Numbered from the stretch's first letter, positions 6,625 to 34,200 are shown. The stretch is DNA of 39,245 nucleotides from a virus (IMGVR_UViG_3300028835_000398:1-39245), one strand, 5' to 3'. Numbers and translations are program-made. The notes: generated from the letters alone by a model not told the origin.

Positions 6625-6626
6625 AT

Positions 6627-11877: not shown

Positions 11878-11904
11878 TTTAGCCTCAATCTCCTGCGATA
11901 GTTA

Positions 11905-12751: not shown

Positions 12752-12775
12752 TCCAACTCACCGAACTATGTCTGC

Positions 12776-13208: not shown

Positions 13209-13214
13209 TATTAT

Positions 13215-13980: not shown

Positions 13981-13995
13981 TTGGTATTTCCTGCC

Positions 13996-16296: not shown

Positions 16297-16319
16297 AACT
16301 CTATATCACTCTCATTCAT

Positions 16320-17908: not shown

Positions 17909-18061
17909 AATATCATCCTATCGGGTAGCCCCACCCCTGCCAGCTAGTAGCCAATAGAACTTATCAACTCTGCTACTCTGTCTTGCCAGTGCTGGTTCAC
18001 TCGGAGTGGATACCGAGCCCTAACACACTTTATGGTAGCTAGCAAAGGCAGGACACACACC

Positions 18062-19150: not shown

Positions 19151-19188
19151 TTTACCTCTCCTTTTTATTTCCTTTTAAGGCATACTAT

Positions 19189-19674: not shown

Positions 19675-19731
19675 TGACTTTCCTCCTCTCTAGTATATTA
19701 TTGTTGATATATTACTATTAGTATATTCCCG

Positions 19732-19911
19732 TTAGGGTATTAGCGGTTGTTGACCGAGTGGAGTCCTGTCAATAGACCGCAGTTGCTTATGGGCTGTAGT
19801 CATTTTCTCAAGGGCTTCCCACTCGCCGTCATTTTTGGGCAGAACTTCCGTAATGAGTTTGCCAAGCTCACTTGATAGGTCATTCAGCTTTTTAACTTGG
19901 TCTGGGTTCAT
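19732..19911 (-). CDS. 59-aa hypothetical protein (below the ORF-track cutoff)
   Basis: My translation begins MNPDQVKKLNDLSSELGKLITEVLPKNDGEWEALEKM... The AGGAGG RBS lies 5 nt upstream of the ATG. Confidence 0.6.
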   Translation of the reverse strand: MNPDQVKKLNDLSSELGKLITEVLPKNDGEWEALEKMTTAHKQLRSIDRTPLGQQPLIP

Positions 19912-19962
19912 TGTTGCCTCCTTTCTATTGTTCCCAAAAGGGAACTATTTATAGGTTTTAAG

Positions 19963-20226
19963 CTAAAACTCTACTACTTCTGGCTTCCCAAAAGTATCAA
20001 AGTTCTTTACTTTATCGCAGCCTTCCCTTCTAGCATTGGTCAATCCCGCCCTAGCTCTCTCTAGTAAATCTCCCAAACCAAAGCGGTTATAGTAGCAACA
20101 CTCAAACTTACTTCCGACAACGAGAAAGATACAACAGTCTGCGCCCTGCCCTATCTTACAATGCGCTGCAATCTCCTCCTCTGTAGGAAATATCTCCGTG
20201 TAGCAATCGTGAACTATCGCTTTCAT
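19963..20226 (-). CDS. Cys-rich hypothetical protein
   Basis: 87 aa with 8 Cys (CKIGQGADCCIF...ECCYY). AAGGGGGA RBS. Confidence 0.6.
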   Translation of the reverse strand: MKAIVHDCYTEIFPTEEEIAAHCKIGQGADCCIFLVVGSKFECCYYNRFGLGDLLERARAGLTNARREGCDKVKNFDTFGKPEVVEF

Positions 20227-20255
20227 AGCTTCCCCCTTTCTCTTGAATTAGTATC

Positions 20256-20444
20256 TTATGAGGACGCAGGTGGCTTGTAGCCCCTAGCGTCCCTTATTTT
20301 TTTACGTATCTCATAGTGCTTCATACAATAAGCCTGCCCTTTAATTAACAACCCTATCACTAACTTTCTAGGAATGGAGCAATCGGGACAGACAAGAGCA
20401 CTATTAACTTGCTCGTTACCTATCCTGATTTGTTTAACCTTCAT
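20256..20444 (-). CDS. Small zinc-ribbon protein
   Basis: 62 aa with CPDC...C..H. The ATG overlaps the XRE stop (ATGA). Confidence 0.55.
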   Translation of the reverse strand: MKVKQIRIGNEQVNSALVCPDCSIPRKLVIGLLIKGQAYCMKHYEIRKKIRDARGYKPPASS

Positions 20445-20644
20445 CCTCTTTTAGCTAGCCTTGTCAGTTGACGTAGTGCTAATATACTAGGTCTCTTGTC
20501 TCCCCTTTCCCATCGGCTGACAGTAATTTTATGAACACCTAGCAGCTTAGCGAACTCCTCTTGACTTAACCGCATAGATTTCCGTAGTTTGATAATCCTT
20601 TTAGCATCATAAGTAATCATTTGCATATAGGTAATAGTATACAC
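20441..20644 (-). CDS. XRE/Cro-CI family helix-turn-helix regulator
   Basis: Contains LSQEEFAKLLGVHKITVSRWERGDKRPS. The likely true start is ATG 20626 (MQMITYD), a few nt downstream of a near-consensus promoter, which would make the mRNA leaderless. Confidence 0.8.
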   Translation of the reverse strand: MYTITYMQMITYDAKRIIKLRKSMRLSQEEFAKLLGVHKITVSRWERGDKRPSILALRQLTRLAKRG

Positions 20645-20664
20645 CTGCTTACAGAGTTTGTCAA
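20636..20664 (-). promoter_or_regulatory. Sigma70-type promoter TTGACA-N17-TATACT driving the XRE gene
   Basis: On the minus strand the sequence reads TTGACAaactctgtaagcaggtgTATACT. The -10 ends about 10 nt before ATG 20626. Confidence 0.6.
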
Positions 20665-20676
20665 GCCCCCCAGTGA

Positions 20677-20820
20677 TTATTTTCTGGGCTTCTCTTTCTT
20701 TTCCTGTCTGAGAACCAGACCCTCATTGACTATCTCGCCCATAGTTTTCTTTTCCTTGATGCTGTCAATGCGTCCTTGTTCCCAGAGCTTCTTATCCACA
20801 TTGCAAATAGTTACTTTCAT
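20677..20820 (-). CDS. 47-aa ribbon-helix-helix (Arc/CopG-like) DNA-binding protein (below the ORF-track cutoff)
   Basis: My translation is MKVTICNVDKKLWEQGRIDSIKEKKTMGEIVNEGLVLRQEKKEKPRK, which fits a beta-strand followed by two helices. GAGGAG RBS lies 6 nt upstream. Confidence 0.6.
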   Translation of the reverse strand: MKVTICNVDKKLWEQGRIDSIKEKKTMGEIVNEGLVLRQEKKEKPRK

Positions 20821-20833
20821 ATCTCACTCCTCT

Positions 20834-21046
20834 CTATGTTACTTGGACAAAATCAGTCCACGCCCTGCTTTCGTGTAGCTGGCAGTAGTGCTTCCCATTA
20901 TCAAAGTTCACATAGATACGCTGACCGAACTTGATAATCTGACCGCACTCCTCACACCTCACAGACACGTTGCGTGGGCAGACCGTCCAGCCGACCCACC
21001 TTCTTACTAGTGGGTCATACCTGAACTTTATCTCATTGCCCATCAA
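20834..21046 (-). CDS. Small zinc-finger protein
   Basis: 70 aa with CPRN..CEEC...C..H. Confidence 0.55.
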   Translation of the reverse strand: MMGNEIKFRYDPLVRRWVGWTVCPRNVSVRCEECGQIIKFGQRIYVNFDNGKHYCQLHESRAWTDFVQVT

Positions 21047-21519
21047 TATCCTCTCCTTTCTGGTAAGCCGAAATATGCCACATCCATCTTCTTCTCTAGC
21101 TTATCGCACCAATCCTCAGCATCCTGTTCTAGCTTGGCAATCTGCTCTCGCAATTTAGTTACCCTATCAAGGACAACTGCATTGGCAGGTGTAGCTTCGT
21201 AAATTCTGGAATACCGCAGGTTTTCTTTGCTGACACCCGAACCCCACCCTGTATGTTCGTTTGCAACAAAGCGAATAGATGAGTCATTCGGATTGCAGCT
21301 AGTAACCCGACCAGCCACGATAGAAGAACCTTTGCGCTCATAGGCATTGATAGGGAAGTTCCACTTGAACTTGACCAGCTTATCAATCTGCTTCTCCAAG
21401 TCCTCTTGGAGCACGGCAGAGCTGACCTCATCACCACTCTCATCCCTCGCTACGAACTTCTTGCGACTATCATCATAGCTGATATTATAGGTTTTATACT
21501 CGCCAATTTTGGTTAGCAT
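21043..21519 (-). CDS. Hypothetical protein
   Basis: 158 aa with AAGGAG RBS. The overlapping 94-aa ORF in another frame on the same strand was rejected. Confidence 0.6.
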   Translation of the reverse strand: MLTKIGEYKTYNISYDDSRKKFVARDESGDEVSSAVLQEDLEKQIDKLVKFKWNFPINAYERKGSSIVAGRVTSCNPNDSSIRFVANEHTGWGSGVSKENLRYSRIYEATPANAVVLDRVTKLREQIAKLEQDAEDWCDKLEKKMDVAYFGLPERRGY

Positions 21520-21540
21520 TGTAATCTCCTTTCTCTGTTT

Positions 21541-21762
21541 TTATTCCATCACCTTACCTGTGACACCCACTGTTACCTCAAGCCTTTGGGCTGTTCCCTT
21601 TGGGTAGTTTTCAACAATGTGGGCTATCATTTCTAACCTTAGCTCATTCTCTATATAGATATTGACATCGGATGATTGCTCTCGGTATGTCTTCTTGCCA
21701 GCGTGGAATATGATGTATCCGTTGTCTATTTTCTCCACATCAAAGGTAAAAACCTTCTTCAT
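21541..21762 (-). CDS. Hypothetical small protein
   Basis: The preferred ATG is 21762 (MKKVFTF), 8 nt after GAAAGGGG. The track start GTG 21771 abuts the RBS. Confidence 0.55.
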   Translation of the reverse strand: MKKVFTFDVEKIDNGYIIFHAGKKTYREQSSDVNIYIENELRLEMIAHIVENYPKGTAQRLEVTVGVTGKVME

Positions 21763-21834
21763 AATGCACACCCCTTTCTTTAGATTTCTGGGGGCTTGGT
21801 GTTATACCAGCCCCCGATGTAACTATGCCTCTAT

Positions 21835-22347
21835 TTAACTATTGCTATCACCCCCTTTCTTCACATATCCTATAATTATATTATGGGGAAAATCTATAAG
21901 TAGCTTACCCCCACAATTACACTTTTCCCTCTGTGCCAAGACCCATCCACTATATCTAATACCGCAGCTAGCACAGACAGCTTTGGGACAGCTCTCGCTC
22001 TGAAACTCTGCTAGCCCTGCATCGCCTGTTACTTCTGGCATCCCTTTGCCCCCCGCTTTGGCTAGGGCTTTCTTTCTGTAATCCAGCGGTAGCTTATTGG
22101 AAAGGAATAACGCATAAAGATATAGAGCCTTTCTATTTGCGTCATCAGCTTGAAAGCAAGCCTCACTGAAGTCGTTTCTAACAACAGCAGTAAGAAAATC
22201 ACCAAGGGGATAAGCCTCACGATACCATTTATAGATGTGGTGCATACACATTGCTATATGGTCTAGCTCATCTAAGGTAAATGGTATCTTGGGCATTAAG
22301 CCTTCAGCATTTTCCGCTACCCACTGTCTAATATCGGTCTGTTCCAT
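21835..22347 (-). CDS. Hypothetical protein with a C-terminal zinc ribbon
   Basis: 170 aa with CASCG...CNCGG. Confidence 0.6.
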   Translation of the reverse strand: MEQTDIRQWVAENAEGLMPKIPFTLDELDHIAMCMHHIYKWYREAYPLGDFLTAVVRNDFSEACFQADDANRKALYLYALFLSNKLPLDYRKKALAKAGGKGMPEVTGDAGLAEFQSESCPKAVCASCGIRYSGWVLAQREKCNCGGKLLIDFPHNIIIGYVKKGGDSNS

Positions 22348-22416
22348 CTCATATCTCCTTACTATTTATTCCTTAGCAACTCAATAGTGGGCAGGAGCTA
22401 TGTATTTTGCTTTGTG

Positions 22417-22812
22417 TTATGCAGTTTGGGCTAACTCAAATATCTCATCAGCGTATTTGTGCCATTTCCTTTGTAGCGGGGCAATCCGCCCTGCTAGCTT
22501 CTCTCGCTTGCCTATAAGTGTCAGGTATTTTGCTAGTTTATCGTATTGATTGAGCATATAAACCTTTACTTGGTCAGGGCTAGTCAGCACAACTCCACAG
22601 GTGTTCCCGTGTATCTCAACCCCGATGTTCCACTGGTCTATAAACTCATCCGCTTCAAGATTACCCCCAAACTTCTTGTTGTAGTTGTGGTGGCTAATAT
22701 CAAACTTAACTTTGGGAGCAAACTCAATCTCCACCAGCTTTACTAATCTCCACCTGCCAGCCCGATGCCAAGTCAAGCCATTAAGCAGGTCAATGAGTTC
22801 CTGTCTTTCCAC
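22417..22812 (-). CDS. Hypothetical protein, first gene downstream of the consensus promoter
   Basis: 131 aa with a GTG start 7 nt after AAGGAG. Confidence 0.6.
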   Translation of the reverse strand: MERQELIDLLNGLTWHRAGRWRLVKLVEIEFAPKVKFDISHHNYNKKFGGNLEADEFIDQWNIGVEIHGNTCGVVLTSPDQVKVYMLNQYDKLAKYLTLIGKREKLAGRIAPLQRKWHKYADEIFELAQTA

Positions 22813-22875
22813 TTTGCTTCTCCTTTGCCCCCGCCCACTATTCAGTTGTTAAGGTGCTATCCGACTTACCCAAAG

Positions 22876-22904
22876 ATTATACCATAGGCTGTCAAGTATG
22901 TCAA
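22876..22904 (-). promoter_or_regulatory. Consensus sigma70 promoter TTGACA-N17-TATAAT with a duplicated -35 hexamer
   Basis: On the minus strand the sequence reads TTGACAtacTTGACAgcctatggTATAAT. The distal TTGACA sits exactly 17 nt from TATAAT. The promoter is about 60 nt upstream of GTG 22812. Confidence 0.7.
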
Positions 22905-23029
22905 CTCAGGCTTGCCAGCTTAACATTTCAATACAATCTCCTGCGACTTATTTTCAGGGGAGTTTTCAGGTCGGCATAACCCAAGACATTAACCGACCTC
23001 TAACACCCACCTAGATTTTTAAGTTAGCT

Positions 23030-23296
23030 TCAATCAAACTTACCCTGCTCAAATATCACCACCGTCCCAACCAGAGACCTGCTCAGAGCAAGAGAAGCTA
23101 CCGCATTATACGGCAAGCCCAACGGCAAGCCGTCCTCGTTCACGATTACATCAGCCCAATCACCCTTATATACAGTGTTAAAGTGCTCTATGTAGCCACC
23201 GACTAGCTCTTGTAGCTCCTCTAGGCTAGGATGGTGCTTATCAGACTCAACCATTCTCTCTGAGCCATCATCCTTGATAACTCTCAGCTTATACAT
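23030..23296 (-). CDS. Hypothetical small protein
   Basis: 88 aa with AAGGAGG RBS. Confidence 0.6.
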   Translation of the reverse strand: MYKLRVIKDDGSERMVESDKHHPSLEELQELVGGYIEHFNTVYKGDWADVIVNEDGLPLGLPYNAVASLALSRSLVGTVVIFEQGKFD

Positions 23297-23322
23297 AGCG
23301 ACCTCCTTTCTGAGCAGTTAAA

Positions 23323-23727
23323 CTAGAAACCTATATGCTGAGCACGGATAGTCGTGCCGACTATCCGTAATTCTTCCTGCTCGTCAATAGGCTCACGGAG
23401 CTTGCCGTTAAAGGACTTAGCTATCTGGCAGGCTTTCTTATAAGGTATGAGCCTGCCACAGTCACCGCTTAGAGGTATATAGCCAGCCCTGCCCTCAATG
23501 GCTATGCCTATTACAGTAGCTAAGCCAGTAAAGCAGAGTTTAGCCCCCCTACGGTAGAGGTCAACAAACGCCTCAAAGTCTCCGCACTTCGGGCAGATAT
23601 AGGTATTGGTCAACCAACGAGATAGAGCATTGCGACCCTCGTGCCTATATTTAGGCTTACCGCAATATGGGCAAGGCTCACCTTCAGGACTACCCCAAAC
23701 CTCAGCCTTGATTTTGGTGTTCTCCAT
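23323..23727 (-). CDS. Hypothetical protein with a zinc ribbon
   Basis: 134 aa with CPYCG...CPKCG. AAGGAGG RBS. Confidence 0.6.
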   Translation of the reverse strand: MENTKIKAEVWGSPEGEPCPYCGKPKYRHEGRNALSRWLTNTYICPKCGDFEAFVDLYRRGAKLCFTGLATVIGIAIEGRAGYIPLSGDCGRLIPYKKACQIAKSFNGKLREPIDEQEELRIVGTTIRAQHIGF

Positions 23728-23890
23728 AGCAACCTCCTTTCAGTTATTTTTTATAGACTCCTTACTATCAGGCATAGTAAGCTCCACAAGCTCATCACTG
23801 GCTGGCTCATAGACTACCTTTGCCCAAGAGCCTATAGTGCTCAGCAATGAGCTTTGTTATGGTTTCCTCTAACACTTTCCAGTTCATAGC

Positions 23891-24094
23891 TTATCCCCTA
23901 TACAGTTTTGTCAGCGTCTTAACCGTGCCACGCTTGGTATAGCTATCAGCCTTGAAACTCCTACCGTTTAGGCTCACGGTCATTGACAGGCTCTTTATAA
24001 GTTCCTCAGTTATTCTAGCCTTACTCCTGTCAATCCACTTGTCAGGATATAGGGAGTGATACTTGCGATACCTAGCACGCTCTCTCGCTCTCAT
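23891..24094 (-). CDS. Small basic hypothetical protein
   Basis: The preferred ATG is 24094 (MRARERARYRKY), 6 nt after GAAAGGGG. The track start TTG 24100 abuts the RBS. Confidence 0.5.
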   Translation of the reverse strand: MRARERARYRKYHSLYPDKWIDRSKARITEELIKSLSMTVSLNGRSFKADSYTKRGTVKTLTKLYRG

Positions 24095-24177
24095 AGTCAA
24101 CCCCTTTCACTTACTAGAGCCTATCGGCTCAGGTCTGGGGCTATAGCCTGAGCTATCCCCAGAACTCAATAGATTAG

Positions 24178-24369
24178 CTACGCCTCTTTAATGGCTTTTA
24201 ATTCTTTGCTTGTAAGGCATATTATATAGCCTGTATCTAGCATTATATTTGTTGTTTGGCAAGGCTTCTCGGCTAATTTTATGCTAGTAATTTTGCCCTC
24301 TAAAATTGCATTTTCCTCCTCATAAGTTGTATTTCCTTCCATCAAAAGTCTTTTGTATATTACATACAT
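24178..24369 (-). CDS. Hypothetical small protein
   Basis: 63 aa with AAGGGAGG RBS. Confidence 0.55.
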   Translation of the reverse strand: MYVIYKRLLMEGNTTYEEENAILEGKITSIKLAEKPCQTTNIMLDTGYIICLTSKELKAIKEA

Positions 24370-24442
24370 CTTTCCGTGCCTCCCTTTTAGATTTACCTAT
24401 AATCTCTCGTGATTAAATTCTAGGCTGTTAAGCTGGCATACC

Positions 24443-24973
24443 CTATCTCTCAGCACTTGCCAGCGATTTTAACCCCTCATTTTTGACATTAGCTTTGCGG
24501 ACATATTTCCGTTTGAAGTGGTATTGTCTGGGGACATACGGGAAAAGCTGATAGCTTCTAAATTGGTAGTCGGTATAGCCGTCCAGAGGGTTGCCGTCTG
24601 TGGCAAAAAAGCCCTTGCTATTGCTGCCTAGAGTGTAGAAGTTGCATTGCATAGCTTTGTCGTAATGAATTTTAATGATAGTTCGTGGGCGTGTAAGCTC
24701 GTAGTCGGTAAAGCCTAGACGCTCTGGCACTCTGGTATTGAGCCTAATCTTATCGCCCAGCAGAAACTTACTTGAGGGGTGCTCAGCGAGGTTGCAGTCC
24801 CGACACAGCACACGGCAGTTATTCTCTGTGGTCTTACCACCGTTGTTGTAAGGATTGATATGAGCTATCTCTCTCCGCTCTTTGTTGCCACACTCAGCAC
24901 AAGGCTTGTCTTGGTCTACAATCCAGAGCCTATGGAGTCTAGCCCGCTCAGTGCGGTCATTGCGATAAGCCAT
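24443..24973 (-). CDS. HNH endonuclease
   Basis: Contains CAECG...EIAHINPYNNGGKTTENNCRVLCRDCNLAEH, which fits the HNH beta-beta-alpha-metal motif with two Cys pairs. Confidence 0.8.
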   Translation of the reverse strand: MAYRNDRTERARLHRLWIVDQDKPCAECGNKERREIAHINPYNNGGKTTENNCRVLCRDCNLAEHPSSKFLLGDKIRLNTRVPERLGFTDYELTRPRTIIKIHYDKAMQCNFYTLGSNSKGFFATDGNPLDGYTDYQFRSYQLFPYVPRQYHFKRKYVRKANVKNEGLKSLASAER

Positions 24974-25001
24974 TGTCTCAATCCCCTTTCATAGACTTGA
25001 G

Positions 25002-25382
25002 CTAAACTAACCTATTTCGTCTTTGCCTTCTTCTGGCATATTTCTTTGAAAAATGCCTTTGCCTAGCCACTACTTGCTTGCCGTGCTTGGGCATAACACC
25101 GCTTAGTTCCTTGAGCTTGCGGTAAAATGTAGCATTATGTCCATTGCTGAAAGGTATGAGACAATGAGCTATCTCTTCCCATAACAACAGACTTGGTAAT
25201 CCAGCGGGAGTCAAGAGTCGCTTGGCACTCCGAATACATACCCAATTACGATGCTTGTCACTAGGGTAACAATGAGCGTGTGCCTTTGCTCTGAAGCTAG
25301 AGCCATCCCCACGTTCTACACAGCCACCAACAAAGACTCTGATACCCCTGTCGTTTGCCTCTTTGACCTTTATCTCTGCCAT
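25002..25382 (-). CDS. Hypothetical early protein with a basic C-terminal tail
   Basis: The preferred ATG is 25382 (MAEIKVKE) after GAAAGGGGA. The track ORF extends to TTG 25430. Confidence 0.55.
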   Translation of the reverse strand: MAEIKVKEANDRGIRVFVGGCVERGDGSSFRAKAHAHCYPSDKHRNWVCIRSAKRLLTPAGLPSLLLWEEIAHCLIPFSNGHNATFYRKLKELSGVMPKHGKQVVARQRHFSKKYARRRQRRNRLV

Positions 25383-25464
25383 TGCCAATCCCCTTTCAAT
25401 GAATTGTGCTTGAAGGCTCAGGACTGCCAACTAGCTGAAGCTAGCCAGCAGATAGCTGAGCGTT

Positions 25465-25650
25465 CTAGCAATCGTGAGCTTTGCAATAGGCTGAGTCTGC
25501 CTCGGTCTCAAGACGCTCAAGTGGACATTCGCCCATTGGTGGGTCGCAATCCTCTCGCATCCCGTCAAGAGTAAATCTGCAATATGGACACGACATACAG
25601 ACAGGGTTTTTAGGATTGGTTGGAGAAGGCTCTAACTTTGGTTGTGTCAT
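25465..25650 (-). CDS. Small Cys-rich protein, first gene of the early operon
   Basis: 61 aa with CMSCPYC...C...C...C. GAAAGGGGA RBS. Confidence 0.6.
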   Translation of the reverse strand: MTQPKLEPSPTNPKNPVCMSCPYCRFTLDGMREDCDPPMGECPLERLETEADSAYCKAHDC

Positions 25651-25699
25651 TGTTTTATTCCCCTTTCAATCTGGCTTGCCATACTTGCCAGCTACAAAC

Positions 25700-25729
25700 A
25701 GCTTATCACGCCTACAAAAGCCTTGTCAA
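25700..25729 (-). promoter_or_regulatory. Candidate early promoter TTGACA-N18-TAAGCT with a TGn extended -10
   Basis: On the minus strand the sequence reads TTGACAaggcttttgtaggcgTGaTAAGCT, about 50 nt upstream of ATG 25650. Confidence 0.45.
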
Positions 25730-25828
25730 CCCCCCCATTTTAGCTACGAAATAGCCTCTTTTGTAGCTGAATAACTTTATGTCAATTTTGATGAAAATAG
25801 TTTGCCAGCTACGGCTCAGCTTTGACGC

Positions 25829-25857
25829 TTGACAAACTGCCCTCTTTACTTTACGCT
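25829..25857 (+). promoter_or_regulatory. Candidate rightward promoter TTGACA-N17-TACGCT, preceded by a second TTGACG hexamer
   Basis: TTTGACGCTTGACAaactgccctctttacttTACGCT on the plus strand, about 115 nt upstream of 25973. Confidence 0.35.
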
Positions 25858-25972
25858 AGAACTAGGTTGTCATTGGCTTTTTTAAGCTGGGCAATCCCCT
25901 TTCAGAGCCTAGCTGAGACTAGCGGTAATCTTGGCTAGGCTCATTTATAAACGGGGAGAAACTTGTAGCTGA

Positions 25973-26365
25973 GTGAGCCTGACGCAATGTTTATCTTGGA
26001 GGCTAATTAAAGTGGGGGGAGAAGGTTCGGGACGTAAACCCAAGACTATCAAAACAAGGCAGATACAAGAGACCTTGACCGAAGCTGGAGTCTACGGGTC
26101 TAAACTCATTCGCGATATTCTACGGGGCACAGACTCCAAGCATCGCAAGACGAAGCCCGTCTCAATGTCTAAACTCAGGGCTGCTATTGAGGCAATCAAC
26201 CACGCTATAGGTCTACCAAAAGCCAAGATAGAACTCAAAACTGATGCCTTAACGATGAAAGATATTGCTGAATTGGCAGTAAGTTTTGGTCAAGAAGCTG
26301 ATGTTTTAACCGTCCCTTTACCTAAAAAGAGTGTTGAGGAGAAGGTCAAAAGTGAGGAGAATTGA
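25973..26365 (+). CDS. Possible small terminase subunit or DNA-binding protein (first plus-strand gene)
   Basis: The GSGRKPKTIKTRQ basic N-terminus is reminiscent of P27-type small terminases. The likely start is GTG 26012, 9 nt after GGAGG. An iteron array follows the gene. Confidence 0.35.
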   Translation: MSLTQCLSWRLIKVGGEGSGRKPKTIKTRQIQETLTEAGVYGSKLIRDILRGTDSKHRKTKPVSMSKLRAAIEAINHAIGLPKAKIELKTDALTMKDIAELAVSFGQEADVLTVPLPKKSVEEKVKSEEN

Positions 26366-26374
26366 AGCTAATAT

Positions 26375-26448
26375 ACTTCTAGGTTACTTAGGAGTTACTT
26401 CGGAGTTACCTAGAAGTAACTCAGGAGTTAAAGAGAAGTTACTTCTAG
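26375..26448. repeat. Six 11-bp phased iterons (GGAGTTACTT-like), bracketed by ACTTCTAG with an inverted CTAGAAGT at the centre
   Basis: GTTAC or its complement GTAAC occurs at 26383, 26394, 26405, 26416 (inverted) and 26438, with a degenerate GTTAA at 26427. ACTTCTAG is at 26375 and 26441. CTAGAAGT is at 26410. Confidence 0.85.
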
Positions 26449-26460
26449 TTATAGTCGCGC

Positions 26461-26500
26461 TATCTCTATCTCTAAGATTATCTCTAAGATTATCTCTATC
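26461..26500. repeat. TATCTCTAAGAT 12-bp tandem repeat (two perfect copies plus partial copies on each flank)
   Basis: TATCTC starts at 26461, 26467, 26479 and 26491. The perfect 12-mers are at 26467-26478 and 26479-26490. Confidence 0.9.
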
Positions 26501-26515
26501 CCCCCCTACCCCCCC
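26501..26515. repeat. C6-TA-C7 homopolymer block, left arm of an imperfect inverted repeat with 26814..26828
   Basis: CCCCCCTACCCCCCC here is matched by GGGGGGATGGGGGGT at 26814-26828. Confidence 0.8.
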
Positions 26516-26521
26516 AATGAG

Positions 26522-26704
26522 CTATTTACTTAATTCCTTTGAGAGTCTTAGTATCTTGTCCTTGCTGGTGCATCGTAGTTGCTGTGCCATTGCGGAGGGA
26601 AAGCCGAGAGACCTTGCATACTGGTATAACTCGGTTTGCCTTGTCTTCATCTTCTTCTGCCTCTCAATGGTTGCTTTCTTTAAGTCATCAAACTCTTTAC
26701 TCAT
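26522..26704 (-). CDS. 60-aa antisense-oriented small protein (helical, possibly DNA-binding) embedded in the repeat region
   Basis: The preferred ATG is 26704 (MSKEFDDLKK...), 6 nt after GGAGG. It is the only minus-strand gene inside the plus-strand block. A candidate promoter TTGACC-N17-TAGGCT lies at 26724-26752. Confidence 0.55.
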   Translation of the reverse strand: MSKEFDDLKKATIERQKKMKTRQTELYQYARSLGFPSAMAQQLRCTSKDKILRLSKELSK

Positions 26705-26813
26705 AACATACCTCCATACCCTAAGCCTATCATACTCTAATGCAAAGGTCAAGCTTTAATGGGCTATACCCTTCCCTGTGCTGACAGTTCTATACCCCAA
26801 GCACCTCTTTTAA

Positions 26814-26850
26814 GGGGGGATGGGGGGTCGCCTTAAATGTGCAGGGGGGG
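26814..26850. repeat. G6-AT-G6 ... G7 block (right arm of the inverted repeat; G-quadruplex-prone)
   Basis: GGGGGGATGGGGGGTCGCCTTAAATGTGCAGGGGGGG. Confidence 0.8.
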
Positions 26851-26940
26851 TCTATCTAAGGAGGTCGCTCACGCAAGATGGTGTTCAAAACACAGTTCAG
26901 GCGTGGATAGGCACAGTAATTTAAAAACACAGGCAGGAGA

Positions 26941-27020
26941 GTTTACGTTAGTTTAGATTAGTTTAATGCAGTTTGACGAAGTAGAAGGTAGTATAATAAA
27001 GTTTAATAAAGTTACCCTGA
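26941..27020. repeat. Eight helically phased 10-bp units beginning GT(T)TA, containing a TATAAT hexamer
   Basis: The units are gtttacgtta, gtttagatta, gtttaatgca, gtttgacgaa, gtagaaggta, gtataataaa, gtttaataaa and gttaccctga, each starting exactly 10 bp after the previous one. TATAAT is at 26992-26997. Confidence 0.85.
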
Positions 27021-27041
27021 GAAGAAGGAGGAGGAGTAAAA

Positions 27042-27344
27042 ATGACACAGGAATTAAGCATCGCTGAGGATGTCCCCACCCAAGTTATTGGAATATGTCT
27101 GCGGGGAATGAACCTCAAAGAGTATATGAAGGGTTGTCTGGATGGAACTTATCCGTTCCCCATTGGCAGGGATGGCAAGCGGGTAGGGGGTATCCCAGAG
27201 TTGCCCCTTGTTGGAATAAATATGTTATGCGGAGAGCGGGTAATCTACAGAACCCTTGATGATTTGCCTGAGACATCCGTGCCGTGCACCTGTGGAAACC
27301 CGAACCACTGGTTTGTATTTATAGAAGAAAAGGAGAAAAGGTAA
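27042..27344 (+). CDS. Hypothetical protein
   Basis: 100 aa with a strong AGGAGGAGGAG RBS. Confidence 0.6.
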   Translation: MTQELSIAEDVPTQVIGICLRGMNLKEYMKGCLDGTYPFPIGRDGKRVGGIPELPLVGINMLCGERVIYRTLDDLPETSVPCTCGNPNHWFVFIEEKEKR

Positions 27345-27650
27345 ATGTCGGAGCAAAAGTATGACCCAAAGAAGTATGCCCTTGAGCTGGGGTTCTCTGA
27401 GGCGGATGCGGATGCTCTGGGGAAGAGTGGGGTAGATGCCACTCTCCTGAGACGGCTGGCGAAGGCAAAGAGGGCAAAGGGGCTGATACCAGAGCAAATA
27501 AAGATGCGTCAGTCTGAAGTGCCACCACCCAAGAAGGAAGCACCTGCTGAGAGTGAGGCTGCCCCGCCAGAGCCTAAGAAGCACCAGCACTCATACCGTA
27601 AGGACGGGACTTGCGCCTGCGGAATAGCTTTCACAGGAGATTATAGCTAA
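27345..27650 (+). CDS. Hypothetical protein (alternative small-terminase candidate by position)
   Basis: 101 aa, located two genes upstream of the large terminase. Helical N-terminus (KKYALELGFSEADADALGKSG), a Pro/Glu-rich linker and a Cys pair. Confidence 0.55.
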   Translation: MSEQKYDPKKYALELGFSEADADALGKSGVDATLLRRLAKAKRAKGLIPEQIKMRQSEVPPPKKEAPAESEAAPPEPKKHQHSYRKDGTCACGIAFTGDYS

Positions 27651-27674
27651 AATGCTAAACAGGGTGGGCGACCA

Positions 27675-27851
27675 ATGCACGGTAGAAAGCTCTGGGACTG
27701 TGAACTGTGCCCGAAGCCCATCTGTGTCGGTGAGCCTTATCGCTATTGGCGGGTCAAGATTGACGATACCCTTCGGCTGGTGAGGGTTCACCCTGAGTGT
27801 AAATTAAAAGCGGAGCGTGAGAGTGGTATTAGACCAGATAGAAACGATTGA
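27675..27851 (+). CDS. 58-aa zinc-ribbon-like protein (below the ORF-track cutoff)
   Basis: My translation is MHGRKLWDCELCPKPICVGEPYRYWRVKIDDTLRLVRVHPECKLKAERESGIRPDRND. The RBS is weak. It overlaps the 5' end of the terminase ORF. Confidence 0.4.
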   Translation: MHGRKLWDCELCPKPICVGEPYRYWRVKIDDTLRLVRVHPECKLKAERESGIRPDRND

Positions 27852-29283
27852 CATAACCACAGTAGAGGGAGCGAGGTTCGTTACCGAGCAGGGTAAAAAA
27901 TACCCCGACCTCTGGATAGAGAACTATCTGGGCTGCAATATGTGGTCTACCCCTAAGTTAATAGCCCGCTCCACATTCGCTCATCCCAGAACGGCGGTTG
28001 CGTCTGCATCGGCTACCTCAAAATCCCACACGGCAGCCCGCATCGCCTGTGCCTTCCTTTATCTTTTCAGCCCGTCAACGGTTATCACCACCGCCCCTAC
28101 CTTCCGTCAGGTTGAGTCAATCCTGTGGCGTGAAATCAGGGCAGCGTGGGCGGGGTCTAGGGTAAATCTGGGTGGCGACCTCAAGGCGACTGGCATCCAT
28201 ATCAGGGAGGATTGGTTCGCCATCGGTCTTTCTACCGATGAGCCTGAGCGGTTTCAGGGCTTGCATAATGAGAACGTGCTGGTGATTGGCGATGAGGCTA
28301 GCGGTCTCACGCCTAATGTCTACACCGCTATTGAAAATCCCCTGAGTTCGGGTAATGCCCACCTGCTGCTCATCGGAAACCCCACGCAACCTGTCGGCAA
28401 TTTCAGGGATTGCTTCACCGACCCGCAGACCTCAAAGCTCTACAAGACCTTCTATATCTCCTGCTTTGATACGCCCAACTTTACGCAGTTCGGGATTGAT
28501 ATGGACGACATTCGCTCTGGCGAGTGGCGGGATAAAATAGGCGATGCCGACCTTCCCAGACCATACCTCATCACTCCGCAATGGGTCTGGGAACGCTATC
28601 AGGAGTGGGGGGAGAATAATATCCTGTTCCAAGTCTACTGTCTGGGTCGCTTTCCTGACGCTGGCGTTAATACCCTCATCCCCTATCATACTATAGGCTA
28701 CGCAATGGAGACCGTTGAGAAGAAGGCTGAGGGATTGAAGGTCTGTGCCCTTGATGTTTCCAGATATGGCGATGATGAGACTGTTTTAGGCATCAGGCAG
28801 GGCGACAGGATATTCCCGTTGGAACGCTGGGGGCATCAGGATACCACCAACACGGCGGGGCGGGTCGCCAGACTCTTGAGAAAGCACGACCCCGTAGGAT
28901 GCTGGATTGACGCTGTGGGTGTTGGTGCTGGCGTTTATGACAATTTGAAAGCCAACGGCTATCCTGTCTATGAGTTCAACTCGTCTGAGGCTGCTCTGGA
29001 CAAGGAGATATTTGGCAATATCAGGGCTGAGCTATACTTCGCTCTGGGGGATAAGCTGGAAGCGGAGTCGCTGGATTTGCCGAAGGACAATCTCCTCAAA
29101 GGGCAACTCGGCGATATTAGATACCGATACAATACCAAGAACCAGCTTATGATTGAGTCTAAAGAGGAAGCAAGGTCAAGGGGGGTTCGCTCACCAGACA
29201 GGGGCGATACCTTAATGATGCTGATGAAGCCAATAGCAGCGATGATTAACAGTAAGCCTTTCGTAAGAAATACTATGGGCTAA
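27817..29283 (+). CDS. terL: Terminase large subunit
   Basis: 488 aa. Degenerate Walker A region (ASASATSKSHTAA) and Walker B VLVIGDEASG. The C-terminal nuclease-sized half contains VCALDVSRYGDDETV. It lies immediately upstream of the portal gene. Confidence 0.85.
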   Translation: MRVVLDQIETIDITTVEGARFVTEQGKKYPDLWIENYLGCNMWSTPKLIARSTFAHPRTAVASASATSKSHTAARIACAFLYLFSPSTVITTAPTFRQVESILWREIRAAWAGSRVNLGGDLKATGIHIREDWFAIGLSTDEPERFQGLHNENVLVIGDEASGLTPNVYTAIENPLSSGNAHLLLIGNPTQPVGNFRDCFTDPQTSKLYKTFYISCFDTPNFTQFGIDMDDIRSGEWRDKIGDADLPRPYLITPQWVWERYQEWGENNILFQVYCLGRFPDAGVNTLIPYHTIGYAMETVEKKAEGLKVCALDVSRYGDDETVLGIRQGDRIFPLERWGHQDTTNTAGRVARLLRKHDPVGCWIDAVGVGAGVYDNLKANGYPVYEFNSSEAALDKEIFGNIRAELYFALGDKLEAESLDLPKDNLLKGQLGDIRYRYNTKNQLMIESKEEARSRGVRSPDRGDTLMMLMKPIAAMINSKPFVRNTMG

Positions 29284-31064: not shown

Positions 31065-31279
31065 TGGCAAAGAGTTTAGCTGATTGCAAAAACCCAGAGG
31101 AAGCCCACAAGGTAATTGATGAGCGTGTCAAGGCTGCTTTGCAGCAACCGACAGGTGAGAAAATAGAGCGATTTCGGCAGATGATAGCTACCAGAGGTGG
31201 TCAAGTAGGGCAACCGTTCCCACCTGAAAGACCGCAGCAACCCAGAACGCAACTGCCGTCAGTGAGGGCTAACCTATGA
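31061..31279 (+). CDS. Small hypothetical protein, translationally coupled between the portal and giant ORFs
   Basis: 72 aa, with ATGA overlaps at both ends. Confidence 0.55.
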   Translation: MMAKSLADCKNPEEAHKVIDERVKAALQQPTGEKIERFRQMIATRGGQVGQPFPPERPQQPRTQLPSVRANL

Positions 31280-34200
31280 CTACCCAAAAATTACTTGAGC
31301 CGAAAGAACCACCCACATTAGAGGAACTTAGGCATAAGATGTTTGAGTTAGCTCGCAAGACTGGTATAAAGCCACTTAAAGCTGGTGAACAGATGTTCTT
31401 TAGCCCTAAGCAAGCTAAGGATTTGGGTGTGGAAATTGAAGAAGGCTGGCTGTTAAAGCTGATTGGTGCTGAGGGTGAAGCCCCGCCAGCAATCAGCTAT
31501 ATCTCTCCTGAGAAGTGGGAAGTAATAGGTGAGGATACATTTTTATCTCCAGAAGGAGAGCAATATACCAGAGACCAACTCACCCAGCTTTACGAGGAGC
31601 AACAAGCTCAGATAATGGCAGCACCGCCTGAAGCACTAGCCCCAGAGATAATCCCCCCGCCACCACCAGCACCACCGATTGAGCTACCTACAACTATCGT
31701 CAGACCAGAGATTGATAATGCCCTCAGACGGGTATACCCTGAATTGTTTGAGCCGACAAAGACAGTCGGCTTCACGGCAGAAGAAGTGCCGATGATGGTT
31801 CTTGAGCAGATATTCACAAGGGCTGAGAGTGAGCCAGAGACATTACTTGAGGAGATATATCAGAAAGGCAGGAGTCCCGACACGGAAGCCCTGCTACGCA
31901 TTTTCAATCCCGATATGACCTCTCAGGAAATGTTTACATTCTTCGCCCCACCTGACCCATACGCACCCGTCAGGTCTAGTATCCTGAACATATTCCCTGA
32001 TGGCAAGGTAGAGGACATTATGAAGTGGGCTGAGGAGAACCCTGACGCTTTCTTTGCCCAGATTAGAGACATTGGCATAAACAAGGATACGGTGAGCTTA
32101 CTGGAAACAGTTACCGATATGACTGAGATTGATATGGCTAAGTTCTTTGCCGAACCAACCAGACCTATGAGCAATGCTTTCCTGTCTGGTGTCCAGACCG
32201 TGTTTCAATATGTTGACGGCTGGTGGAAAACAGGTCTTATGGAGCTAGGTTTCAAGTATTATGACCTGATGGAGTGGGCTAGCTTCAATGACGACCATTG
32301 GCGAAGTCAGGCTGAGGTTATTCTAAATGACGCTTTCAAAAAACACGGCTGGAAGGCTATCTTTAGCTCTGATGTCAACGAGGCTTGGGACGTATATTTC
32401 AAAGAGCGTTTAGGTGAAGGTGCTCTTACTACCGCAATGGAGATAATTGCCGTGTTCACCAATCCTCTATATATCCTTCCTGCTGGCAAGGTATCAATGG
32501 TTGTAGCTAAACCGTTTCGTGGTATACCAGTATTGGGCGAGACTATGCAGGGCGTAGCAAAAGGAGTCCAGTTAAGCGAAAGGGCATTAGCCGAAGCTAC
32601 CCTGCTGCCGACTGTTGGGCGTGGTATAAAGTGGACTGTTGGCAAAATAGCTCCCAAAGCGGAGAGATACTTGATAGCCACATTACCCGAAAGGGAGTTA
32701 CTGAGGGAATGGCTATTTAAGAATGATTACTTTAGGAAAGTGGCGGAGAAAATTCCGCTTTTAGGTAAGATTGCACCAGCAGCAAAAGTCTCTGGTCGCC
32801 TGCCAGAAGTATTAGCAACCAAAGCTGAAGCTGGTGCTGCCGTCATTCAGGAGACGGCGATGAGAAATGCTATCCTTGAGGTAGGGCAGAGCACCAAAGG
32901 TCAGGCTCTAGCCTATATCCGTGAGCTTGGCTCAACAAGAGAAATCTTTGGAGTTAGGGAAGGGCTGGTCAGTTCACGTCTGGTCAAGCCTAGACAAGTT
33001 GAATACAGCCTTGCTCTGGGCGATGTGCTCCAAGCCCCTGAGCGTTATACTTTTGCTCATAAAAACGGCTTTGAATATGCCAAGCGAACCCAGAAGCTAA
33101 TGCAGGAAATGTTTGAGCTTGCCAAGAAGGAAGGTGTGGACATCAAAAAGACTGCCCTTGAGCCATTTGAGGAGTTTGTCCACTGGGTTGTTACTGGTGT
33201 CAAAAACAAAGAAGGCGTGGTTATATCAACCAGAATGGGGCGTGGTAGTGTTGTCGGTGCTCTGCCAGCTTCAATGAAGCACCGCCGATTTGAGCGGATG
33301 CTGGACGGTCTAAATCAGGGCTTCATTTATGCTGACGATGTGGAGGTCTACGTTGGAACTTATACTGACGATATGTTCAAGGCGATTGCCGACCGCCGCT
33401 ACGGTGAGGGGATAAAAGAAATCATCGGCAGGTTAGGCAAGGAACTCGGTGCTCTGCCTGTTACGCCGAAAGACAGATTGTGGGCTGTGTATCCCGAACA
33501 GGCTAAACGGTGGTGGCTCAGGCAGCCTACCGCCAGAATAGGTGAAGTGCCCACAGTCCGTGAAGCCTTGCAGGACTTGGTTTACTCAATGAATACAGTC
33601 AAGCAACTGGCAAGAGGGCAGCAGATAGCAGGAGCTACACTCAGGGCGATTGAAAACAGGACACCTGCCATAGCCGAAAGAATTAGAACCGTCAGTGTAT
33701 TCAAAGGTGATAGAGCAACTAAGGCTAAGCTGGAAGCGTTGATATGGAAGCGGATGCAGGCTGGCAAACCAATCCCTGTTACCTTGCCGAATGTCAGAAA
33801 GGGAGTAGCATTTGGAAAAGACATAGCCCCCACCATAGAAAGTGAGATAGCATCGTTGAAGAGGTTTGTGGCTGACAGGGCTGCTGAAGGAGCAGGTTTT
33901 GAGGAGTTGTATGGTATTGGTCTCAGGATACGAAGCCTGCAAGCGAAGCGAGGTTTCCTGTCCGTTGAGGATTATGTTTCTAGTTTGGGCAAGGACGATG
34001 TTACCAAGTTCTATCAGAAGTTTACCAAGTTGGAGCGTGCTGACGCTCTGGCTGCCGAACTCAGGGGTGAGTTTGATAGGATGCTACCCGACTACCTTAG
34101 TGCCCGTTTTGAGTATCAGCGTGCTATGGAGATAGTCAAGCGACCCCTAGCAAAAGAGGGTGAGGGCTATATCAGGACGGCGAGGGGTTATCCGCATCCG

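What the first reader, a model, noticed from the sequence alone, without database searches (positions are those of the whole stretch)
26501..26850. Inverted C6TAC7 / G6ATG6 blocks flank a lone antisense gene, with an extra G7 run
CCCCCCTACCCCCCC (26501-26515) and GGGGGGATGGGGGGT (26814-26828) are near reverse complements. They bracket about 300 bp holding the only minus-strand gene in the late block (26522..26704, 60 aa, with its own RBS and a TTGACC-N17-TAGGCT promoter). A further G7 run lies at 26844-26850. The layout could be the terminal inverted repeats of a tiny inserted cassette (moron or MITE-like). It could also be a recombination or inversion substrate, G-quadruplex-forming boundaries on each strand, or G/C-rich cohesive-end sequences. 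Long homopolymers are also slippage-prone.
Basis: partly seen in the sequence, partly recalled or inferred. Interest (0 to 1): 0.65.

Follow-up and report, generated by a model that had tools for sequence, protein, structure and literature searches.

The report
Conserved G/C-run site with inserted gene
The C-rich and G-rich blocks are real, but they are conserved landmarks of a non-coding control region in front of the DNA-packaging genes of a family of uncultured sediment phages, and the small backwards gene between them is an optional add-on, not a jumping element bounded by the blocks.

Summary
G6ATG6 (26814-27), G7 (26844-50) and the 60-aa minus-strand ORF are as stated. Five G/C runs of 6 or more within 400 bp was never reached in 300 simulations.

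The blocks are not the ends of a cassette. About 27 non-redundant relatives (TerL 50-75% identical) carry the same layout upstream of TerL:
- phage-specific repeats;
- 5-7-bp simple repeats;
- often a C6-7 T(T)A C6-7 block;
- a variable slot;
- a C-rich box;
- a conserved G-run/A·T-rich core.

Blocks occur without the gene (L012, L019, L002). The gene occurs without the distal block (L343, L232).

The gene is real. It has 14 homologues and a position-conserved promoter. It lies opposite to TerL in all seven contexts seen. Its C-terminal 34 residues match the N-domain of a conserved plus-strand protein.

I found no RNA family, no covariation and no recombinase.

Best reading, at moderate confidence: a DNA-level recognition region at the head of the packaging operon, probably a cos/pac-type site, with an accessory gene in its spacer. 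A late-transcription control region is the main rival. Genome termini are unmapped.

The parts
24443..24973 (-). HNH endonuclease gene, kept at this position next to the region in relatives
   Evidence: Pfam HNH, E 2.9e-9. tblastn identity is 50-73% in L088, L003, L002, L005, L015, L007 and L218, always just left of the region; L020 has a weak 32% match.
25973..26365 (+). p130, first gene of the rightward operon. Candidate small terminase, with weak evidence only.
   Evidence: Conserved in relatives. The only PDB profile hit is a small terminase, 7joq, at E 0.86. The top Foldseek hits are the small terminases of G20c and P74-26, at E about 1-3 and TM about 0.3. None of these is significant.
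26374..26445 (.). Phage-specific 11-bp repeats (GTTACTTAGGA, about 4 copies), arranged partly as a 22-nt near-palindrome
   Evidence: Every relative has its own repeat sequence at the same place.
26460..26498 (.). Simple 6/12-bp repeats (CTATCT; TATCTCTAAGAT x2.7)
   Evidence: Counterparts in relatives include (AAGTCT)8 in L003, GATAAG-type in L019 and L012, and TATAAG-type in L002 and L218.
26500..26515 (+). Distal double C-run block, C7TAC7. The minus strand reads G7TAG7, a canonical G4 motif.
   Evidence: The same block follows the simple repeats in L012 (C6TTAC6), L019 (C6TAC6) and L346 (C7TTAC6). A G-strand version occurs in L011 and L266.
26522..26704 (-). Accessory 60-aa gene: one long helix followed by two short helices
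   Evidence: 14 homologues at 53-62% identity. AlphaFold2 pLDDT 93.7. hhalign to the ELGF family gives 87% probability, E 4e-6. Absent from L218 and L002.
26711..26752 (-). RBS (26715-26711) and promoter of the accessory gene (-10 TAGGCT at 26729-26724; -35 TTGACC at 26752-26747)
   Evidence: Read. The -35, the 17-nt spacing and the TGn plus TAnnCT are position-conserved in L343 and L346. The form matches the phage's own promoter TTGACA-N17-TACGCT at about 25830-25865.
26795..26807 (+). Proximal C-rich box (CCCCAAGCACCTC), 6 nt upstream of the G block
   Evidence: Nearly all relatives have a C-rich box 5-25 nt upstream of the G run. It is closest to L088 (ATACCCCAACCCCTCATTTTGGGGG).
26814..26916 (+). 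Conserved non-coding core: G6ATG6, then TCGCCTTAAATGTGCA, then G7, then ... AGGCGTGGATAGGCACAG
   Evidence: Aligned with L218 and L002. nhmmer hits in window, L218, L002/L214, L087 and L088. A related G-run plus GCTTAWWRTMAC core occurs in about 20 more distant relatives. It is a single copy in the window. Indels that are not multiples of 3 rule out coding.
26940..27019 (+). Eight 10-bp phased repeats, each starting AGT(TTA), between the core and the next gene
   Evidence: Relatives also have short direct repeats downstream of the core, for example L012 TTACCATTGATTTAA x3 and L087 GTACGGA-type x4.
27345..27650 (+). ELGF protein (101 aa), conserved in relatives. Its N-domain is homologous to the C-terminal half of the accessory protein.
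27817..29283 (+). Large terminase, used as the anchor for finding relatives

Best explanation
The C and G blocks are DNA-level landmarks of a long non-coding region (about 26366-27041). That region heads the packaging and structural operon in a whole clade of roughly 40-kb uncultured phages.

The conserved order is:
1. phage-specific repeats;
2. simple 5-7-bp repeats;
3. a double C-run block (in some members);
4. a variable slot;
5. a C-rich box;
6. a G-run, A/T-rich core, G-run or C-run element;
7. further short repeats;
8. small genes, then TerL.

Shown: the 60-aa minus-strand gene is an optional accessory gene with its own promoter. It occupies the variable slot, where relatives carry a 25-38-aa membrane-peptide ORF or nothing. 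It is not bounded by the blocks in any transposon-like sense.

Inferred: the region is the terminase recognition and cleavage region (cos/pac type). On this reading the variable repeats are binding sites for a phage-specific protein, with p130 as the candidate small terminase. The sequence-conserved G-run/A·T core would be the part handled by the conserved TerL, possibly with the neighbouring HNH nuclease.

More speculative: the accessory protein shares a helix-loop-helix domain with the conserved ELGF protein and always sits beside the repeat arrays. It probably binds the same DNA or partner and modulates the region. Its transcription also runs head-on into the rightward operon.

Confidence in the anatomy is about 0.9. 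Confidence in the packaging function is about 0.35-0.4.
For: Anatomy.
- The layout is conserved in close relatives (L218, L002, L087, L088, L003, L005, L007).
- It is also conserved in distant relatives (L012, L015, L017, L019, L020, L022, L023, L224, L225, L229, L233, L234, L238, L240, L241, L249, L232, L343, L011).
- Double-run blocks occur at 1.5 per 100 kb in relatives, against 0.19 in unrelated control loci.
- Gene presence or absence is independent of the blocks.

DNA-level rather than RNA-level.
- No Rfam hit at E of 10 or less.
- RNAalifold on 15 elements gives -0.79 kcal/mol with 0 covarying pairs.
- Fold z-scores are +0.25 and +0.39.
- The bases that interrupt the C and G runs are not complementary (TA versus AT; A versus A).

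Packaging reading.
- The element always lies 0.26-2.2 kb upstream of TerL, at the junction of the leftward and rightward gene blocks.
- The G-run/GCTTA core is found in TerL-family members, and no GCTTA-type core is seen in L346, which has a different terminase.
- Repeat arrays lie on both sides of a unique conserved core.
- An HNH nuclease gene is conserved beside the region, and L020 has a p130-like ORF and a weak HNH match (32% over 53 aa) upstream of its repeats and core on the same strand.
- HNH proteins promote cos cleavage in HK97-type phages (PMC9410871; PMC11331095; PMC12967558).
- The only structural hints for p130 point to small terminases.

Accessory gene.
Against: - No termini were mapped. 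The window and L001 are circular or internal assemblies.
- Contig ends of relatives scatter across the region rather than piling up at one base, as expected if repeats or homopolymers break assemblies.
- The small-terminase hints for p130 are not significant (E 0.86; Foldseek E about 1; model pLDDT 67).
- L346 has an unrelated terminase (Terminase_2 TerS, Terminase_3-like TerL). It still carries the left half of the layout: promoter, GTTATAC repeats, simple repeats and C7TTAC6, 71% identical to the L019 leader. At least the repeats and the distal C block are therefore not tied to the terminase type.
- The window holds other nuclease genes that look like homing endonucleases: HNH_3 (17333-17908) and a weak LAGLIDADG hit (13996-14412). 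The HNH argument is only contextual.
- In the window-type subgroup, RNAalifold proposes a stem between GCUUAAAU and a box about 60 nt downstream, with several G·U-compatible changes. An RNA role is not fully excluded.
Confidence: 0.4

Rival explanations
1. The region is a late-operon transcription control region. The variable repeats are operators for a phage-specific regulator. The conserved G-run/A·T core plus the downstream ACAATTT..AATTT box and TAGTCT-like hexamer form an activator-dependent promoter. The small divergent or antisense protein is its regulator.
For: - The region lies directly downstream of the divergent promoters.
- In distant relatives the core sits 60-90 nt before the first RBS of the rightward operon.
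- The left half travels independently of terminase type.
- The small gene always lies beside the repeat arrays and opposite to the operon, like a repressor-operator pair. In L017 and L228 it is the first leftward gene.
- The phage's promoters are of the form TTGACA-N17-TAnnCT, and one has a G run abutting the -35 (C7 at 25730-25736).
Against: - No acceptable -35/-10 pair with correct spacing could be placed on the conserved boxes by inspection.
- The generic scan finds only one weak site, at 26973-27002.
- The small protein is absent from most relatives, so it cannot be the essential regulator.
- No fold or family match assigns it a DNA-binding role: Foldseek E above 3, and GapR_DNA-bd matched by only 3 of 15 members with best E 0.013.
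Confidence: 0.3
2. The region is an iteron-type replication origin: iterons, an A/T-rich repeat tract that acts as an unwinding element, and a G/C-rich block, placed between divergent transcription units.
For: - The layout of direct repeats, A/T-rich simple repeats and a G/C block resembles iteron origins (general knowledge, not tested).
- The cumulative GC skew has its minimum at about 26 kb.
- The left half is independent of terminase type.
Against: - The GC-skew switch coincides with the switch in gene orientation, so it is confounded.
- The candidate initiator and helicase-loader genes lie 9-10 kb away (15475-17361), with other repeats near the replication genes (19691-19727).
- The core tracks the TerL family.
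Confidence: 0.1
3. The blocks pair in the late mRNA, or as a DNA cruciform, to form a long-range stem or alternative hairpins that regulate the enclosed small ORF or downstream genes.
For: - The minimum-free-energy fold of 26480-26870 pairs the C runs with the G runs.
- In L012 the G7 pairs with a downstream C6.
- The five-sequence alifold gives -18.6 kcal/mol with some one-sided G·U-compatible changes.
Against: - Folds are no more stable than shuffled sequences (z +0.25 and +0.39).
- There are 0 compensatory pairs in the 15-sequence set, and the covariation term is unfavourable in the 5-sequence set.
- The position of the C-run partner changes between subgroups (upstream or downstream), and the interrupting bases do not pair.
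- No Rfam family matches.
Confidence: 0.08
4. The blocks are terminal inverted repeats of a small mobile cassette (MITE or moron with TIRs), or recombination sites of an invertible switch.
For: - The near-complementary blocks flank a self-promoted gene that is missing from the closest relatives.
- In L346 the same gene again abuts a C7TTAC6 block.
Against: - Blocks occur without the gene (L012, L019, L002) and the gene occurs without the distal block (L343, L232). In L017 and L228 the gene lies outside the slot.
- The core is a single copy in the window, with no duplications flanking the blocks.
- The gene has the same orientation in 7 of 7 contexts.
- No recombinase or transposase was found among the 30 window ORFs scanned against Pfam.
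Confidence: 0.03

Closest known systems
cos regions of lambda-like and HK97-like phages (cosQ-cosN-cosB; HNH-assisted cleavage)
   Same: - A unique site just upstream of the terminase genes.
- A sequence-conserved core flanked by phage-specific protein-binding repeats and bent or A/T-rich DNA.
- An HNH nuclease gene next to it (PMC9410871, PMC11331095, PMC12967558, PMC4669245).
   Different: - Termini are not mapped here.
- Long G and C homopolymer runs are not a feature of those cos sites as far as I know (own knowledge).
- The HNH gene is on the opposite strand in the window.
- The candidate small terminase lies upstream of the site.
- Part of the layout also occurs with a different terminase type (L346).
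Herpesvirus pac1 packaging signal
   Same: [quoted passage not shown] Here G6ATG6, TCGCCTTAAATGTGCA and G7 have the same form, and they lie upstream of a terminase of the same enzyme superfamily.
   Different: - No sequence homology and no terminal repeats detected.
- In many relatives the second G run is replaced by a C run or is absent.
- Function is untested.
Phage morons (self-contained accessory genes inserted between genes of an operon)
   Same: - The 60-aa gene has its own conserved promoter and RBS.
- It is absent from the nearest relatives.
- It recurs in otherwise different phages.
   Different: - No intrinsic terminator was found.
- It is always at one kind of place (beside the repeat arrays) and always opposite to the operon, which suggests a function tied to the site rather than a host-directed cargo.
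- It is related to a resident phage protein.
Iteron-type replication origins
   Same: Direct repeats, an A/T-rich tract and a G/C-rich block between divergent transcription units (own knowledge of the class).
   Different: - The replication genes are about 9-10 kb away.
- The conserved core tracks the terminase family.
- No initiator binding data exist.

Membership tests
TIR-bounded mobile cassette / MITE | The inverted repeats and the cargo move together: present together, absent together | tested here: not met
   Blocks occur without the gene in L012, L019 and L002. The gene occurs without the distal block in L343-345 and L232.
TIR-bounded mobile cassette / MITE | Multiple copies and target-site duplications | tested here: not met
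   The core and the gene are single copy in the window. No direct duplication flanks 26500-26827.
Moron | Own promoter; absent from close relatives at the same site | tested here: met
   The promoter is position-conserved in three loci. L218 and L002 lack the gene.
Moron | Own transcription terminator | tested here: not met
   No terminator-like site lies downstream of the gene on the minus strand. Only G7TAG7 and the repeat palindrome follow it.
Invertible DNA switch | Both orientations observed | tested here: not met
   7 of 7 contexts are opposite to TerL. Read-level data were not available.
Invertible DNA switch | A site-specific recombinase encoded nearby | tested here: not met
   No recombinase was found among the 30 window ORFs scanned against Pfam. 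The only related hit is a Gp3-like RDF-family protein at 18062-19150. Small ORFs were not all scanned.
cos / pac packaging site | Coincides with the physical genome termini or the start of the packaging series | not testable with these tools
   Only assemblies are available and the window is circularly closed. Contig ends of relatives are uninformative.
cos / pac packaging site | Unique site next to the terminase genes, conserved with the terminase lineage | tested here: inconclusive
   The site is unique and always upstream of TerL. The core tracks the TerL family. The left half also occurs with an unrelated terminase.
cos / pac packaging site | A small terminase that binds adjacent repeats | tested here: inconclusive
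   p130 has only non-significant small-terminase hints.
Canonical G-quadruplex motif (G3+ N1-7, four tracts) | Sequence pattern present | tested here: met
   The minus strand at 26515-26500 reads GGG-G-GGG-TA-GGG-G-GGG. The G4Hunter extremes of the genome lie here. Actual folding was not tested.
Any Rfam RNA family | Covariance-model match | tested here: not met
   Only three chance-level hits (E 4-8, far below gathering scores) in 25400-27900.
GapR-like / HeH-type small DNA-binding proteins (for the 60-aa protein) | Significant profile or fold match | tested here: not met
   PF10073 is matched by 3 of 15 members, best E 0.013. No PDB sequence or fold match was found. The topology of one long helix plus two short helices is only reminiscent (own knowledge of GapR).

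The most novel reading that the evidence does not exclude
The G-run, A/T core, G-run element, together with the distal G4-capable double-run block, is a packaging signal based on non-B DNA. It would be read by a terminase plus HNH machine in a clade of sediment phages, making it a bacterial-virus counterpart of the herpesvirus pac1 signal. The optional 60-aa protein would be a truncated paralogue of a resident DNA-binding protein that tunes access to the signal.
Probability: 0.15. Interest if true: 0.7.

Novelty: new variant of a known kind. Interest (0 to 1): 0.45.

Why it matters
The value here lies in a conserved layout seen across dozens of uncultured phage genomes from marine sediment, groundwater and similar sites, not in one odd locus. 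Some of these phages are binned with Dehalococcoidia MAGs.

- It marks where the control or packaging region of this family lies.
- It supplies a short conserved DNA motif for finding genome boundaries and relatives.
- It identifies a variable slot where small genes are exchanged.

If the core is the terminase site, these phages would show a G/C-homopolymer-flanked packaging signal, which I do not know from cultured phages. If it is a promoter region, it defines the family's late-gene switch.

The small protein family and its relation to the ELGF proteins give a testable pair of candidate site-binding proteins.

Tried and rejected
- INPHARED phage DNA search of 25900-27900: no match.
- IMG/VR searches with single proteins (TerL, 60-aa): nothing. 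The 60-aa family profile in IMG/VR: nothing.
- A loose DNA pattern scan of IMG/VR (G5 N1-5 GC N0-1 KTAAATGT) returned 120 loci. None encodes a TerL relative, so all are chance matches. I reused them only as a control set.
- Contig-end analysis as a proxy for genome termini: the ends fall at various places in the repeats or the core, and are not informative.
- tRNA/tmRNA scan: none.
- Rfam: nothing.
- Foldseek of the 60-aa model against the PDB: no match with E below 3. PDB sequence profile: nothing meaningful.
- The nearest cultured TerL relatives (Arthrobacter and Streptomyces phages, 30-33% identity; a Methanosarcinales virus, 40%) are too distant to infer the packaging mode.
- The motif TTGARSCTA looked like a recurring intergenic signal (7 matches against 1.9 expected). 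It largely reflects stop-codon and gene-junction contexts, so I dropped it.
- Placing a sigma-70 -35/-10 pair on the conserved boxes by eye gave no consistent spacing.

Full report
**1. What is in the sequence**

Reading 26200-27200 shows C7-TA-C7 at 26500-26515. G6-AT-G6 lies at 26814-26827 and G7 at 26844-26850.

The runs of the two blocks are complementary, but the central dinucleotides are not: the reverse complement of the left block is G7TAG7, not G6ATG6.

The minus-strand ORF 26522..26704 (60 aa) is present. It has GGAGG six bases upstream of the ATG. Its promoter is TTGACC, 17 nt, TAGGCT at 26752-26724.

The clustering is not chance. Five G/C runs of 6 or more lie within 400 bp. The maximum in 300 Markov-1 simulations was 4, with a mean of 1.8. 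The genome-wide G4Hunter maximum and minimum both fall here (run list).

**2. Genome context**

The window is a circularly assembled phage genome of about 39.1 kb. It has a 144-bp identical terminal overlap, and the window start cuts the major capsid gene.

Genes run rightward at 1-10544, leftward at 10858-25650, and rightward again from 25973.

The rightward block starts with a 130-aa ORF, here called p130. A 676-bp non-coding stretch (26366-27041) follows and contains the finding. Then come three small ORFs, TerL (27817-29283), a portal-like gene and a 2211-aa protein.

The leftward block begins with two small ORFs and an HNH nuclease gene (24443-24973). It also holds a DnaC-like loader, a candidate initiator and a Gp3-like protein.

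None of the 30 ORFs scanned against Pfam is an integrase, invertase or transposase.

The non-coding stretch itself is packed with repeats:
- an 11-bp repeat array that is also a near-palindrome (26374-26445);
- 6/12-bp simple repeats (26460-26498);
- the C block;
- the antisense gene;
- a C-rich box (26795-26807);
- the G blocks;
- eight 10-bp phased AGT(TTA) repeats (26940-27019).

**3. Relatives**

Nothing similar exists among cultured phage genomes at the DNA level. The nearest cultured TerL is 30-40% identical.

A Logan contig from SRR5211005 is 100% identical over 5.5 kb.

TerL has about 2,000 homologues in metagenomes. I fetched their loci through.

Many come from marine-sediment and groundwater assemblies. 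The SDBU01 accession series is cited in deep-sea sediment papers. Several relatives are binned in Dehalococcoidia MAGs.

**4. The blocks are conserved landmarks, not cassette ends**

In the closest relatives, L218 (TerL 75%) and L002 (70%), about 100 nt of non-coding DNA aligns with window 26814-26916. This segment runs G-run, (N)GCTTAAATGTGC(A), G7-8, ... GGAGG ... AGTTTAGGCGTGGATAGGCACAG.

The indels in this alignment are not multiples of three, so the segment is not coding.

These two relatives have no antisense gene. Between their simple repeats and the core they carry a 25-39-aa single-helix membrane-peptide ORF instead.

More distant members (TerL 50-56%) show the same order of parts. 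After the divergent promoter come:
- phage-specific repeats;
- simple GATAAG/AAGTCT-type repeats;
- in L012 and L019, a double C-run block (C6TTAC6, C6TAC6) directly after the simple repeats, exactly as in the window;
- 110-130 nt, often with the membrane-peptide ORF;
- a C-rich box;
- G7-8 NN GCTTAWWRTMAC;
- an ACAATTT..AATTT box and the first RBS.

nhmmer with two seed alignments recovers the core in about 27 non-redundant relatives.

Double-run blocks are eight-fold more frequent in the relatives than in 1.1 Mb of unrelated control loci.

**5. The gene is real, optional, and tied to this place**

The 60-aa protein has 14 homologues (53-62% identity, 58-65 aa), with 21 invariant positions. 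AlphaFold2 gives a confident model of one long helix followed by two short ones (pLDDT 93.7).

Contexts recovered by look-up and tblastn:
- L343-345: the gene sits inside the simple repeats, followed by the membrane-peptide ORF and a G7ATGCTTATTATCAC core. There is no distal C block.
- L232: simple repeats, then the gene, then C6...G10 core. There is no distal C block.
- L346: simple repeats, C7TTAC6, the gene, a C-rich box, then G6.
- L011: a G-rich block lies beside the gene.
- L017 and L228: more divergent homologues (38-44%) sit to the left of the repeat arrays, as the first leftward gene.

In all seven contexts the gene is on the strand opposite to TerL.

Its promoter is position-conserved in window, L343 and L346: TTGAC(C/T), a 17-nt spacer ending in TGn, then TAnnCT. 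It has the same form as the phage's own divergent promoters.

The 'optional inserted gene' part stands.

**6. Relation to a resident protein**

A conserved plus-strand protein of about 95 aa carries the motif Y-A-x-E-L-G-F-(S/T)-E-A-(D/E)-A and a C-terminal HxH...CxC (window 27345-27650). I call it ELGF here.

Profile-profile comparison of the two families gives 87% probability, E 4e-6, over 34 columns. Residues 25-58 of the small protein align with residues 7-45 of ELGF.

No family or fold could be assigned. Three of 15 members touch the GapR DNA-binding profile at E of 0.013 or higher, which is a lead only.

**7. RNA or DNA?**

- Rfam gives nothing.
- RNAalifold on 15 distant-clade elements finds only a 4-bp C:G stem, -0.79 kcal/mol, and no compensatory change.
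- Single-sequence folds are no more stable than shuffles.
- The partner C run lies upstream in some subgroups and downstream in others. The interrupting bases (TA/AT, A/A) do not pair.
- In the five window-type sequences, alifold proposes a stem between GCUUAAAU and a downstream box, with some G·U-compatible one-sided changes but an unfavourable covariation term.

I conclude that the conserved features are mainly primary-sequence, DNA-level motifs. An RNA role is not excluded for the window subgroup.

**8. What the region does (inference)**

The case for a packaging site rests on several points:
- The site is unique and lies upstream of TerL at the junction of the two gene arms.
- Repeat arrays flank a conserved core on both sides.
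- The core tracks the TerL family, and no GCTTA-type core is seen in L346, whose terminase is unrelated.
- A position-conserved HNH gene lies beside the region, and L020 has a p130-like ORF and a weak HNH match followed by the site on one strand.
- The literature shows that HNH proteins promote cos cleavage by HK97-type terminases (PMC9410871; PMC11331095; PMC12967558).
- The only structural hints for p130 are small terminases, though they are not significant.
- Herpesvirus pac1 is described as a T-rich element flanked by G-rich, G4-capable sequence (PMC13595911). The resemblance is formal only.

Points against:
- No termini are available.
- Contig ends are uninformative.
- The left half of the layout in L346 is 71% identical to that of L019 although the terminases differ. 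The repeats and the distal C block therefore belong to a module that is independent of terminase type.

That last fact favours the main rival, a transcription-control region whose operators lie next to the divergent promoters. The small opposite-strand protein would then be an optional regulator. An origin of replication is a weaker third reading, because the GC-skew minimum at about 26 kb is confounded with gene orientation.

**9. Verdict**

- The cassette, MITE and inversion readings are not supported.
- The G4 and cohesive-end readings remain open.
- The anatomy (conserved landmarks plus an optional gene in a variable slot) is well supported.
- The function (packaging recognition versus late-transcription control) is not settled.

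Read-start mapping of the source run would decide most of this.

Noticed in passing
L002 4194-4271; L218 1514-1618; L087 687-776; L012 2402-2476; L020 2914-2991; L023/L248 ~70-147; L343 (rc) ~493-380: A tiny ORF (25-38 aa) recurs in the leader of many relatives, between the simple repeats and the G-run core. It encodes one hydrophobic helix followed by basic residues (for example MSQFIIAVLAIVTILIAGSVLLRRQ). The window lacks it, and the antisense gene occupies that slot.
   Followed up: partly
window 26940-27019: Eight consecutive 10-bp units, each starting AGT(TTA), lie between the conserved core and the gene at 27042. This is one helical turn apart. A TATAAT lies at 26992-26997 and a TTGACG at 26973-26978, but their spacing is 13 nt.
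   Followed up: partly
window 26374-26418: The 11-bp repeats directly after the p130 stop codon form a 22-nt near-palindrome (82% complementary, 1 nt between the arms). This could be a binding site for a symmetric oligomer, or a hairpin at the end of the p130 message.
   Followed up: no
window 25720-25736 and 25830-25865; relatives L003, L005, L007, L088, L218: The divergent promoters have the form TTGACA-N17-TAnnCT. The leftward one has a G5-7 run abutting the -35 (C7 at 25730-25736 on the plus strand). This G-run plus TTGACA arrangement is conserved in relatives.
   Followed up: partly
window 22875-22905 (minus strand): A near-perfect sigma-70 promoter, TTGACA-N17-(TGg)TATAAT, sits in an intergenic gap of the leftward block. 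This suggests a host with canonical promoter recognition.
   Followed up: no
window 27042-27650; L002 4951-5544: The window's 100-aa and 101-aa (ELGF) ORFs correspond to a single fused 197-aa protein in L002. The ELGF proteins end in a conserved H-x-H-x-Y-R-K-D-G-T-C-x-C-G motif, possibly a metal site.
   Followed up: partly
window 1-144 and 39102-39245: A 144-bp identical terminal overlap, with the window start inside the major capsid gene. This is a circular assembly cut at an arbitrary point.
   Followed up: yes
window 13996-14412, 17333-17908, 24443-24973: Three nuclease genes of homing-endonuclease types in a 39-kb genome: LAGLIDADG (weak hit), HNH_3 and HNH. Only the last is position-conserved in relatives.
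   Followed up: partly
window 31276-37911; L003, L005: A 2211-aa protein follows the portal gene and has no Pfam hit. The orthologous giant proteins in L003 and L005 carry PF18857 (LPD38). A 54-bp tandem repeat (x2.7) lies in the tail-fibre-like gene at 3890-4036.
   Followed up: no
L292, L293 and L294-L326 (genome contigs): Relatives of the TerL are binned in, or integrated in, Dehalococcoidia/Chloroflexota MAGs, including complete chromosomes (33-37% identity). This is a lead to the host range of the wider family.
   Followed up: no
L023, L240, L249 (core region): Three close relatives differ by one base in homopolymer length (C6/G8, C5/G8, C6/G7). The exact run length is apparently not critical, or the runs slip.
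   Followed up: no
L346 (rc) 5-131 versus L019 1536-1648: The upstream leader (promoter, GTTATAC repeats, simple repeats, double C block) is shared at 71% identity between phages with unrelated terminases. This is a mosaic joint somewhere between the C block and the core.
   Followed up: partly
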